Shown one piece after another: positions 883 through 1,014 of a stretch of 64,000 nucleotides of DNA; position 1 is the first letter of the stretch, and every line of letters begins with the position of its first letter. This stretch comes from a phage, in NCBI GenBank assembly GCA_022520065.1, contig GCA_022520065.1_3942.1; one strand, given 5' to 3'. The translations under genes were made by a program, and so were the position numbers. Under the pieces are notes generated by a model. It had not been told where the DNA came from. It was given only the letters and a program-made list of their open reading frames with translations, and did no database searches.

Positions 883-1014
883 CAGAAGACCGTTTACAGC
901 AAAACTCAAACAATCTATTTCTCCGGTAAAGAAAAGGCGAAGGTTCGATTCCTTCACTCGGCAGATGTCGAGTTGGTGTAATGGTAGCACTTAAGATGAT
1001 AAACAACGGTCTGG
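883..1014 (+). repeat. Structured repeat module D, enclosing a permuted tRNA-like element (939-990)
   Basis: cagaagaccgtttacagcaa ... acggtctgg; interior carries T-arm gaagg-ttcgatt-ccttc, then acceptor 3' strand actcggc, 4-nt loop, acceptor 5' strand gtcgagt and a D-arm. Confidence 0.5.

What the first reader, a model, noticed from the sequence alone, without database searches (positions are those of the whole stretch)
939..990. Circularly permuted tRNA-like element inside repeat module D
The sequence reads T-arm (gaagg-ttcgatt-ccttc), then acceptor 3' strand (actcggc), a 4-nt connector (agat), the complementary acceptor 5' strand (gtcgagt), and a D-arm-like hairpin (gtgt-aatggta-gcac). That is a tRNA top half with its two acceptor strands joined by a loop and its 3' half placed before its 5' half. 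No matching 5' acceptor strand exists 70-90 nt upstream, so it is not a normal tRNA. The whole unit is closed by the module D outer stem (agaccgt 887-893 with acggtct 1006-1012). Permuted tRNA genes and two-piece tmRNAs are known in some organelles and bacteria; I know of no phage tRNA-array example. It could also be a decayed tRNA remnant.
Basis: partly seen in the sequence, partly recalled or inferred. Interest (0 to 1): 0.65.

Follow-up and report, generated by a model that had tools for sequence, protein, structure and literature searches.

The report
Phage Y RNA that mimics tRNA
The "permuted tRNA" is real, but it is a Y RNA: a small non-coding RNA with a tRNA-shaped domain and a capped acceptor stem, which most likely partners a Ro60-like protein encoded just upstream of this phage's tRNA cluster. 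It belongs to a widespread, unannotated phage RNA family.

Summary
At 939-990 a T arm, a 7-bp acceptor-like hairpin and a D arm follow each other, inside a unit (880-1017) closed by a terminal stem.

It is neither a decayed tRNA nor a permuted tRNA gene. The layout is that of YrlA-type Y RNAs (Chen 2014; Wang 2018), which those authors describe as resembling circularly permuted tRNAs with closed acceptor stems.

- **Source and partner gene:** the window is a Felixounavirus. In its relatives, a Ro60-like gene (DUF2828+DUF7788) lies directly upstream of the tRNA array on the same strand. The 12 best PDB fold matches of its AlphaFold model are all Ro60.
- **Conservation:** the acceptor-like hairpin covaries across three genera, while the T and D arms are invariant.
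- **Wider family:** covariance models built from module D find the same architecture beside distant homologues of that gene in 31 of 77 other phage loci, always on the gene's strand. Rfam YrlA hits several of these below threshold, but not module D itself.
- **Sister modules:** three shorter modules (235-313, 402-467, 791-872) share the closing frame AAG-stem-UUACAGCAA...stem-CUG. This frame is the presumed protein docking site and differs from the canonical GNCGAA motif.

The same frame grammar defines Dictyostelium Class I RNAs; this lead is untested. RNA expression and protein binding are inferred, not shown.

The parts
13..42 (+). Sigma-70-type promoter of the first block of the tRNA array (TTGACA-18-TAAAGT, with TG). 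It would co-transcribe modules A-D with the first nine tRNAs.
   Evidence: No + strand terminator-like site lies before the next promoter at 1413-1441.
235..313 (+). Module A: a short Y-like RNA that shares the docking frame and has no tRNA-like domain.
   Evidence: Frame pattern. R2 covariance model 41.2 bits, E 3e-5. Weak Rfam RF01414 hit.
402..467 (+). Module B: a short Y-like RNA. Its 5' frame is identical to module D's over 28 nt (397-424 = 875-902).
   Evidence: (D12). RF01414 23.9 bits.
791..872 (+). Module C: a short Y-like RNA.
   Evidence: 35 bits, E 6e-4.
880..1017 (+). Module D: the complete tRNA-like Y RNA (YrlA type).
   Evidence: R1 159.8 bits and R2 122.4 bits. Alignments A1 and A3.
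880..893 (+). 5' strand of the closing stem: P1 UUAC 880-883, internal-loop AGA 884-886, P2 AGACCGU 887-893. Contains the conserved AAG.
   Evidence: P1 and P2 covary between modules and between phages.
894..902 (+). Conserved single-stranded motif UUACAGCAA next to the 5' stem strand. Presumed recognition element. Includes the YUAY of YrlA.
   Evidence: Present in all four modules. Present as U-N-C-N-GCAA in nearly all family members, including a mycobacteriophage.
918..934 (+). V arm, an anticodon-arm-like hairpin: UUUCU/CCGGUAA/AGAAA.
   Evidence: Loop length and sequence are not conserved. 84.6% of cells paired in A3.
939..955 (+). T arm GAAGG/UUCGAUU/CCUUC with canonical G53, U54, U55, C56, A58 and C61.
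   Evidence: Invariant in 13 distinct Ounavirinae variants.
956..973 (+). AS: an acceptor-like 7-bp hairpin closed by the loop AGAU.
   Evidence: Three pairs changed on both sides among three genera, 98.9% paired. All 7 pairs covary across the wider family.
974..990 (+). UG linker (U8 and N9 positions) and D arm GUGU/AAUGGUA/GCAC with A14, G18, G19 and A21.
   Evidence: The D stem and all but one D-loop position (985) are invariant in Ounavirinae, and the second linker base is G or A.
1006..1017 (+). 3' strand of the closing stem: ACGGUCU 1006-1012, G 1013, GUAA 1014-1017. Contains the conserved CUG.

Best explanation
Module D (880-1017) is a non-coding Y RNA of the YrlA type.

**Production (inferred).** It is transcribed with the tRNAs from the promoter at 13-42. 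It is presumably released by the nucleases that process the flanking tRNAs.

**Protein docking (inferred).** Its 5' and 3' ends pair into a closing stem with an AGA/G internal loop. Next to that stem lies the single-stranded motif UUACAGCAA. Together these form the docking site for the phage's Ro60-like protein (DUF2828 plus a vWA domain). That protein is encoded immediately upstream of the tRNA array, just outside this window.

**tRNA mimicry.** The interior folds as a tRNA-like L: a V arm, a T arm, a 7-bp acceptor-like stem capped by a loop, and a D arm. All nucleotides that build the tRNA elbow are present. This domain would present a tRNA-shaped surface to a tRNA-binding effector, as proposed for bacterial YrlA.

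**Sister modules.** Modules A-C carry the same docking frame with other interiors, like YrlB. The phage would therefore make a small set of adaptor RNAs for one Ro60-like protein.

**Shown here:** the structure, its conservation and covariation, the linkage to the gene, and the Ro60 fold of the protein.
**Inferred:** expression as a stable RNA, binding to the protein, the identity of the effector, and the biological role. The role is probably RNA surveillance or decay, or counter-defence.
For: - **Layout.** The order 5' stem, YUAY, V, T, AS, D, 3' stem matches the published description of YrlA (PMC4201824 sections 5-6; bioRxiv 10.1101/312249).
- **Conservation in Ounavirinae.** T and D arms are invariant and the AS hairpin covaries across Felixounavirus, Suspvirus and Mooglevirus. 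97.1% of cells pair, against 42-52% when partners are slid, and three AS pairs change on both sides.
- **Partner gene.** In phage momo (98% identical over window 230-1165), a 471-aa gene lies about 165 nt upstream of the first tRNA on the same strand. It carries DUF2828 and DUF7788.
- **Ro60 fold.** The AlphaFold model of this protein has pLDDT 86.9. Its 12 best PDB matches are all Ro60/TROVE proteins, at E about 1e-7 and TM 0.47-0.65. The next matches are vWA domains only, at E >= 7e-3.
- **Same contig.** IMG/VR contigs hold both module D and this gene (L029 and L037 are one contig).
- **Wider family.** Model R1, built only from module D, finds full-length matches beside homologues of about 40% identity. 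The acceptor hairpins there are unrelated in sequence but paired. One match lies about 100 nt downstream of the 'RNA-binding protein' gp54 of mycobacteriophage Rumpelstiltskin, a DUF2828 homologue; related mycobacteriophage records label this gene 'Ro-like RNA binding protein' (E 5e-9; gene names).
- **Specificity.** Model R2 hits 31 of 77 other loci. All 53 hits are on the gene's strand, and the 64-kb window yields only the four modules.
- **Family-wide covariation.** 30 of 32 pairs change on both sides and 93.7% of cells pair, against about 42% when slid.
- **Link to YrlA.** Rfam YrlA (RF02553) matches several family members at E 1e-5 to 1e-6.
- **Distribution and function.** The protein family occurs in 710 phage records. 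The Bas63 orthologue gp130 is reported as Ro60-like and as a counter to the ppl defence system (PMC11482910).
Against: - Rfam YrlA does not match module D itself, even at E <= 10. Family members reach only 29-42 bits against a gathering score of 69.
- The canonical Rsr motif GNCGAAN0-1G is absent. The window reads ACAGAAG.
- The Levitt 15:48 pair is not kept: A15 faces C, A or U.
- The Ro60-like gene is not inside the window. Its presence is inferred from near-identical relatives.
- gp130 alone, expressed from a plasmid or from T7 without these RNAs, counters ppl (PMC11482910). The RNAs are therefore not needed for that activity.
- There is no direct evidence of RNA expression or of protein binding.
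- Alignment A4 was fitted to the model, so its pair counts lean towards the proposed structure.
Confidence: 0.8

Rival explanations
1. The element is a tRNA mimic that acts on its own as a decoy or processing element. It could be a sponge for a host tRNA-targeting nuclease or tRNA-modifying enzyme, or an RNase P entry site. On this reading it is independent of the Ro60-like protein, and the shared frame is only a stabilising stem.
For: - Phage tRNA arrays are thought to counter tRNA-directed defences (cited in PMC11482910).
- The elbow nucleotides are strictly conserved.
- gp130 works without the RNAs against ppl.
- About 5-7 of 24 family members keep N-CCA in the acceptor loop. Together with the 7-bp stem, this suits RNase P recognition. 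Mycobacterium smegmatis YrlA is cleaved by RNase P.
Against: The RNA family follows the Ro60-like gene across phages of Proteobacteria and Actinobacteria. All hits are on the gene's strand and within the 4-kb flanks searched. The conserved single-stranded UUNCAGCAA motif and the AAG/CUG flanks are hard to explain as mere stabilisers.
Confidence: 0.1
2. It is a genuine circularly permuted tRNA gene. The transcript would be cut in the closing stem, ligated into a circle and opened at the acceptor loop. The product would be a decoding tRNA-Thr(GGU).
For: All four arms are present in permuted order, and ARAGORN calls tRNA-Thr GGU after in silico rotation. Suspvirus versions have a canonical CUGGUAA loop. 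The array has no tRNA-Thr(GGU). One GenBank record annotates a 131-nt tRNA-Thr GGT here.
Against: - The loop is 6 nt in many Felixounaviruses, position 33 is C in the window, and the triplet differs in L025 and Moogle.
- Most versions encode no CCA, although all 26 array tRNAs do.
- The closing stem has a 3x1 internal loop, not a bulge-helix-bulge.
- No bacterial splicing endonuclease is known.
- Three modules without tRNA parts share the same frame.
Confidence: 0.04
3. It is a non-functional scar of a tandem tRNA duplication followed by deletions. On this reading the acceptor strands are complementary only by descent.
For: - The Moogle version keeps G-CCA plus a 4-nt spacer in the loop, exactly like a tRNA-tRNA junction.
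- The array recombines: phage warpig has lost three tRNAs between two identical frames.
- An ordinary tRNA junction can look superficially similar (L016).
Against: Compensatory changes keep the hairpin paired in three genera, while the flanks diverge to about 72% identity. T and D arms are invariant. The architecture recurs with covariation in distant phages. A duplication is a plausible origin, but it does not describe the present state.
Confidence: 0.04

Closest known systems
YrlA-type bacterial and phage Y RNAs (Rfam RF02553; Chen et al. 2014 PMC4201824; Wang et al. 2018 bioRxiv 10.1101/312249, PDB 6CU1)
   Same: - The 5' and 3' ends pair into a stem for the Ro60 protein.
- The order is YUAY, V arm, near-invariant T arm, variable closed acceptor-like hairpin, a two-base linker, then a near-invariant D arm.
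- It is encoded near a Ro60-type gene on the same strand.
[quoted passage not shown]
   Different: - It scores below the Rfam threshold, and module D is not hit at all.
- The GNCGAA motif is replaced by AAG-stem-UUACAGCAA...CUG.
- The partner is a DUF2828-type protein that Pfam does not classify as TROVE.
- It is embedded in a tRNA array together with three short sister RNAs.
- The acceptor stem is exactly 7 bp, against 6 bp in Salmonella YrlA.
YrlB and other Y RNAs without a tRNA-like domain, including Yrl1 and Yrl2 of Thermus phage phiLo (PMC12135203)
   Same: These are short RNAs that share the protein-binding stem with the tRNA-like Y RNA and are encoded beside the Ro60 gene. Modules A-C fit this pattern.
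   Different: The sequence motif differs: phiLo and YrlB carry CGAA. There are three copies here, interleaved with tRNA genes.
Circularly permuted tRNA genes of Cyanidioschyzon merolae and some algae and archaea (Soma et al. 2007, as cited)
   Same: The 3' half precedes the 5' half, the acceptor strands are joined by a loop, and the termini pair in a stem at the anticodon side.
   Different: There is no bulge-helix-bulge motif, no conserved 7-nt anticodon loop, and no known bacterial enzymes for the circularisation pathway. The breakpoint lies between the D arm and the next arm, with long inserts.
Two-piece tmRNA from permuted ssrA genes (own knowledge)
   Same: The gene order is permuted, with the T arm and acceptor 3' strand upstream of the acceptor 5' strand and an intervening segment capping the acceptor stem.
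   Different: There is no tag reading frame and no pseudoknots. ARAGORN reports no tmRNA. Most versions have no CCA.
Dictyostelid Class I RNAs (Rfam RF01414; Kjellin et al. 2021 PMC7919456)
   Same: Both start with AAG and have a covarying 6-7-bp stem joining the two ends. Both carry the motif CCUUACAGCAA / UUACAGCAA directly after the 5' stem strand, with the same near-invariant C6, C9, A10 and A11. Both end in CUG(U), measure about 60 nt, and have a variable interior.
   Different: One family is eukaryotic and nuclear, the other is from phages. The Rfam score is below threshold (20-24 bits against 41.5). The known direct binder of Class I RNA is an RRM protein. Whether Dictyostelium has a DUF2828 protein was not testable here.

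Membership tests
YrlA-type Y RNA | tRNA-like T stem-loop with the conserved T-loop nucleotides | tested here: met
   GAAGG/UUCGAUU/CCUUC at 939-955. Invariant in 13 variants.
YrlA-type Y RNA | tRNA-like D stem-loop downstream of the T arm, with G18 and G19, preceded by a two-base linker | tested here: met
   UG plus GUGU/AAUGGUA/GCAC at 974-990. The D stem and all but one loop position are invariant, and Moogle has UA as the linker.
YrlA-type Y RNA | [quoted passage not shown] | tested here: met
   956-973. Three pairs change on both sides within Ounavirinae. All 7 pairs covary in the wider family.
YrlA-type Y RNA | Less conserved V stem-loop upstream of the T arm, preceded by a conserved YUAY | tested here: met
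   UUAC at 894-897. The hairpin at 918-934 is 84.6% paired and is shifted in Moogle.
YrlA-type Y RNA | The 5' and 3' ends pair into a stem carrying the Rsr motif GNCGAAN0-1G | tested here: not met
   The stem is present and covaries, but the sequence is ACAGAAG. The family consensus is AAG-stem-UUNCAGCAA, not GNCGAA.
YrlA-type Y RNA | Encoded within 4 kb of a Ro60 orthologue, on the same strand | tested here: met
   Met in relatives. In momo the gene ends about 165 nt before the first tRNA, which puts module D about 1 kb downstream. The protein has a Ro60 fold. All 53 R2 hits are on the gene's strand. The gene itself lies beyond the start of the window.
YrlA-type Y RNA | Reaches the Rfam RF02553 gathering score (69 bits) | tested here: not met
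   No RF02553 hit for 876-1022 at E <= 10. Related phage RNAs score 25-42 bits.
YrlA-type Y RNA | Levitt pair 15:48 kept by covariation | tested here: not met
   A15 is fixed while position 48 is C, A or U among variants.
YrlA-type Y RNA | Bound by Ro60/Rsr and modified by TruB and DusA | not testable with these tools
   Needs immunoprecipitation and modification mapping.
Circularly permuted tRNA gene | All tRNA arms present, with the 3' half before the 5' half | tested here: met
   ARAGORN calls a tRNA after in silico rotation.
Circularly permuted tRNA gene | Conserved 7-nt anticodon loop with U33 and a fixed anticodon | tested here: not met
   The loop is 6 or 7 nt, position 33 is C in the window, and the triplet is GGU, AUG or UUU depending on lineage.
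Circularly permuted tRNA gene | Bulge-helix-bulge motif at the joined termini for a splicing endonuclease | tested here: not met
   The closing stem is 4 bp, then a 3x1 internal loop, then 7 bp. No such bacterial enzyme has been reported.
Two-piece tmRNA | Tag-peptide reading frame and a tmRNA call | tested here: not met
   ARAGORN finds no tmRNA in the window. Rfam gives no tmRNA hit here.
Dictyostelid Class I RNA (RF01414) | AAG start, 6-bp terminal stem, 11-nt CCUUACAGCAA motif, CUGU end, about 60 nt | tested here: inconclusive
   Modules A-C and the frame of module D show all these features. Rfam scores are 19.7-24.3 bits against a gathering score of 41.5. A relationship between the protein partners could not be tested.

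The most novel reading that the evidence does not exclude
The closing frame (AAG, a 6-7-bp covarying stem, UUACAGCAA, ..., stem, CUG) may be the recognition element of DUF2828-type Ro60 paralogues. It may also be the same element that defines the orphan Class I RNAs of dictyostelid amoebae. If so, Class I RNAs would be the Y RNAs of a eukaryotic DUF2828 protein. An obvious candidate is DDB_G0281243, the protein of unknown function pulled down with Class I RNA DdR-21. A phage RNP and an amoebal developmental RNP would then share one ancient RNA-protein module.
Probability: 0.3. Interest if true: 0.85.

Novelty: new variant of a known kind. Interest (0 to 1): 0.58.

Why it matters
- **Annotation.** It identifies four unannotated, or misannotated, RNAs in a well-studied phage group: Felix O1 and its relatives, which include the BASEL-collection phage Bas63.
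- **A new sub-family.** It defines a large sub-family of Y RNAs that the Rfam YrlA model misses. The family is tied to a Ro60-like protein present in at least 710 phage genomes.
- **Testable biology.** Bas63 gp130, reported as Ro60-like and lying in the same position directly upstream of the tRNA array, counters the ppl defence system. The likely RNA cofactors of that protein can now be tested directly.
- **Origin of Y RNAs.** Several versions retain N-CCA plus a spacer in the acceptor loop. This supports the proposal that tRNA-like Y RNAs arose from dimeric tRNA transcripts.
- **Dictyostelium link.** If the Class I RNA resemblance is real, it gives a first mechanistic handle on an abundant ncRNA class whose function has been open since 2004.

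Tried and rejected
- **Self-cleaving ribozymes and known motifs.** The frame was considered as a hairpin ribozyme loop A (AGAA), a hammerhead, a twister, a k-turn, an integron attC site, MITE terminal inverted repeats, a CRISPR-repeat mimic, or a promoter. Rfam gave no hit at E <= 10. The flanking 4-bp inverted covariation fits RNA structure, not target-site duplications.
- **Sequence search of the protein against PDB.** A single sequence found nothing. A profile gave only marginal Ro60 hits at E about 1. The fold search was decisive.
- **AlphaFold DB fold search.** This was tried in order to look for a Dictyostelium DUF2828 protein. The library was unavailable.
- **Avesson et al. 2011.** The paper is not held. 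A literature search for DDB_G0281243 found only one preprint and no domain information.
- **Bas63 record.** A guessed accession turned out to be Bas51. The equivalence of gp130 with the momo orthologue rests on its described position and Ro60-like fold.
- **Donor tRNA.** No tRNA in the array resembles the rotated module D closely. The best is 72% identical, and none shares an identical T or D arm.
- **Campylobacter phage CP81.** This locus gave only weak model hits.

Full report
**What the window is.** The first 5.2 kb of the window hold a phage tRNA array of 26 tRNAs. BLAST places the window in Felixounavirus (Ounavirinae): 226 phage records cover at least 80% of 230-1165, many at 96-98% identity. 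A strong sigma-70-type promoter lies at 13-42 and a second at 1413-1441, with no + strand terminator-like site between them. Everything from 69 to about 1400 is therefore probably one transcript.

**The observation.**
- T arm 939-955.
- A 7-bp hairpin at 956-973 made of the two acceptor-type strands and the loop AGAU.
- UG at 974-975.
- D arm 976-990.
- Outer stem 887-893 with 1006-1012, extended by 880-883 with 1014-1017.

No sequence in 760-938 can pair with the 3' acceptor strand. The Rfam tRNA model sees only a 5'-truncated tRNA, at 24.3 bits. That match includes a further hairpin at 918-934, which looks like an anticodon arm. If the 5' part is moved in front of the 3' part in silico, ARAGORN calls a cloverleaf. 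The parts thus add up to a permuted tRNA-like fold. Folding energy alone is unremarkable (z = -1.6).

**The element belongs to a repeat family.** Four modules in the window share the frame CAGAAGACC-NN-WW-ACAGCAA ... NN-GGTCTGG. There are 4 matches against 0.07 expected by chance. The modules lie at 235-313, 402-467, 791-872 and 880-1017.
- The two variable bases next to AGACC/GGTCT covary: GT/AC or AA/TT.
- The outermost 4 bp also covary between modules and between phages: TGAC/GTCA, TTGC/GCAA, TTAC/GTAA, GAGC/GCTC.
- Only module D has tRNA parts inside.

**Conservation.** Module D is present in 253 phage records. In an alignment of 13 distinct variants from Felixounavirus, Suspvirus and Mooglevirus, the T arm and the D stem are invariant. 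The acceptor hairpin, by contrast, reads:
- ACUCGGC-AGAU-GUCGAGU in Felixounavirus,
- ACACGU-UACG-GCGUGU in Suspvirus and Sf17-like phages,
- ACCCUUC-GCCAAACA-GAAGGGU in Moogle.

Three pairs change on both sides. 97.1% of all cells pair, against 42-52% when the partners are slid. The Moogle loop reads discriminator-CCA plus a 4-nt spacer, like a tRNA-tRNA junction. The anticodon-like loop is not conserved. It is 6 nt in many Felixounaviruses, position 33 is C in the window, and the central triplet is GGU, AUG or UUU in different lineages. This argues against both neutral decay and a decoding role.

**Identification.**
- A preprint on Bas63, a Felixounavirus, reports that gp130 lies directly upstream of the tRNA genes and is structurally similar to Ro60. 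It speculates that some of the 'tRNAs' might be Y RNAs (PMC11482910).
- Chen et al. 2014 describe YrlA Y RNAs as follows: a 5' motif for Rsr, a conserved YUAY, a variable V stem-loop, a near-invariant T stem-loop, a variable acceptor-like stem-loop, a near-invariant D stem-loop, and a location within 4 kb of the Ro60 gene on the same strand (PMC4201824).
- Wang et al. 2018 solved the tRNA-like domain. [quoted passage not shown]

Module D has exactly this order, including UUAC after the stem.

**The partner gene.** In phage momo a 471-aa gene ends about 165 nt upstream of tRNA-Pro on the same strand. Pfam finds DUF2828 and DUF7788. Sequence searches against PDB give at best marginal Ro60 hits at the vWA MIDAS motif. 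An AlphaFold model of a 98%-identical homologue (P0001), built with a 28-sequence alignment, has pLDDT 86.9 and pTM 0.87. Its top 12 PDB matches are all full-length Ro60/TROVE structures: Thermus phage phiLo, Xenopus, human and Deinococcus. These score E about 1e-7 and TM 0.47-0.65, and are followed by a gap to vWA-only matches. The gene lies just beyond the start of this window. However, IMG/VR contigs that carry module D also carry the gene. The family is found in 710 phage records, including Felixounavirus, Vibrio, Mycobacterium, Listeria, Staphylococcus and Campylobacter phages. It is often named 'RNA-binding protein' or 'Ro-like RNA binding protein'.

**A wider RNA family.** A covariance model built only from the 13 Ounavirinae sequences (R1) was run on 75 metagenomic phage loci holding homologues of about 40% identity.
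- It found full-length matches with the same architecture but unrelated stem sequences.
- It also hit 4507-4635 of locus L117, about 100 nt downstream of the Ro60-like gene gp54 of mycobacteriophage Rumpelstiltskin, with the motif CUACAGCAA (42.5 bits).
- A second model from 29 diverse matches (R2) hits 31 of 77 other loci at E < 0.01. All 53 hits are on the gene's strand. In the 64-kb window it hits only the four modules.
- On the model-fitted alignment, 30 of 32 pairs change on both sides and 93.7% of cells pair, against about 42% when slid.
- Rfam YrlA (RF02553) matches several of these RNAs at 25-42 bits, with E down to 3e-6. This links the family to YrlA by intermediates. Module D itself is not matched.

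The frame consensus over the family is (U)AA-AG-[5-6 variable bp]-U-N-C-N-GCAA ... [variable bp]-CU-G-(A/U)-U. This is not the canonical GNCGAAN0-1G. About 5-7 of 24 parsed members keep (N)CCA at the start of the acceptor loop. This fits the proposal that YrlA arose from dimeric tRNA transcripts. It would also suit RNase P, which cleaves the 7-bp-stem YrlA of M. smegmatis.

**Mechanism.** The best-supported reading is that modules A-D are Y RNAs of the phage Ro60-like protein. The shared frame is the docking site. The tRNA-like domain of module D is an adaptor for a tRNA-binding effector. Modules A-C carry other adaptors. In Deinococcus and Salmonella, Y RNAs tether Ro60 to PNPase, and Thermus phage phiLo Ro60 with its Y-like RNAs assembles with host PNPase (PMC12135203).

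Binding, expression and function are inferences here. One published result cuts the other way for one function: gp130 alone rescues T7 on a ppl strain.

**An unexpected resemblance.** Rfam's model of Dictyostelium Class I RNAs (RF01414) gave weak hits to modules B (23.9 bits) and A (19.7 bits) and to a short module in an unrelated phage contig (24.3 bits). Published Class I features match the phage frame point by point (PMC7919456; compare):
- a start with AAG,
- a 6-bp covarying stem joining the ends,
- the 11-nt motif CCUUACAGCAA next to the 5' stem strand, with near-invariant U3, C6, C9, A10 and A11,
- an end with CUGU,
- a length of about 60 nt,
- a variable interior.

The AA before the G and the U after CUG lie outside the Rfam model, so they are independent agreements. 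DUF2828 proteins occur in eukaryotes such as plants and a tardigrade. One of four proteins pulled down with Class I RNA DdR-21 is DDB_G0281243, of unknown function (bioRxiv 10.1101/2020.04.05.026054). I could not test whether it, or any Dictyostelium protein, is DUF2828-like. No paper in the library connects Class I RNAs with Ro60.

**Verdict.** The element is a new variant of a known kind: a tRNA-like Y RNA with a different docking motif and a divergent Ro60-type partner, one of four Y-like RNAs embedded in the tRNA array. None of the GenBank records examined annotates it correctly.

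Noticed in passing
window 235-313, 402-467, 791-872 and the frame of 880-1017; L116 5937-5991: The module frame (AAG, a covarying stem, UUACAGCAA, ..., stem, CUG) has the same grammar as Dictyostelium Class I RNAs. Rfam RF01414 gives sub-threshold hits of 19.7-24.3 bits in two unrelated phage lineages. Whether Dictyostelium has a DUF2828 (Ro60-like) protein could not be tested; DDB_G0281243 is a candidate.
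   Followed up: partly
window 1014-1162: This is a 149-nt element between module D and tRNA-Lys. It is closed by a stem of about 24 bp (inverted repeat 1016-1037 / 1138-1159). The minimum free energy is -47.7 kcal/mol (z = -5.5). The stem arms differ between Felixounavirus and Suspvirus/Mooglevirus but remain complementary. There is no Rfam hit and the function is unknown.
   Followed up: partly
window about 1863-1947: This is a cloverleaf-like element with the anticodon loop CUCCAAA (CCA, Trp), an 8-9-bp acceptor stem, an odd D region and a 3' GCCA. Neither ARAGORN nor Rfam calls it, and the array otherwise has no tRNA-Trp.
   Followed up: partly
window 397-424 and 875-902; L005 (phage warpig) 77-300: The 5' frames of modules B and D are identical over 28 nt. 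In phage warpig, module D follows tRNA-Met directly. Recombination between these repeats has apparently deleted module B's interior, tRNA-Asn, tRNA-Tyr, tRNA-Asp and module C. In the window, module B's outer stem has an A-C mismatch (UUAC with GCAA), consistent with such an exchange.
   Followed up: partly
L001 (VpaE1_ev035) 628-686, corresponding to window 552-562: Many relatives carry an extra segment of about 60 nt between tRNA-Asn and tRNA-Tyr. It contains a T-arm-like hairpin (AAGG UGCAAGU CCUU). The window lacks this segment.
   Followed up: no
L004 (REP7) 109-239; L002 (LMP34) 873-1046 and 1117-1218: GenBank records misannotate this region. One calls a 131-nt 'tRNA-Thr GGT' that spans part of module C and module D up to the acceptor 3' strand. 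Others place small hypothetical-protein CDSs over modules C and D and over the next hairpin.
   Followed up: yes
L006 706-834 (Moogle); L116 5792-5922 and 8481-8611; L084 5521-5640; L065 5942-6070: In several family members the acceptor-hairpin loop begins with a discriminator base plus CCA, followed by a short spacer. This is exactly like the junction of two adjacent tRNA genes. It could be a trace of origin from a tandem tRNA, or a feature kept for RNase P.
   Followed up: partly
window 2740-2800: This hairpin begins CAACUGAAGACCGU and closes ACGG-AGUUG. Its 5' strand resembles the module frame (CUGAAGACC) but lacks the CAGCAA motif. Models R1 and R2 do not report it as a module.
   Followed up: no
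L116 5445-8611: One metagenomic phage contig carries at least three tRNA-like Y RNAs and three short ones around its Ro60-like gene. Multi-copy Y RNA sets are therefore not peculiar to Felixounavirus.
   Followed up: partly
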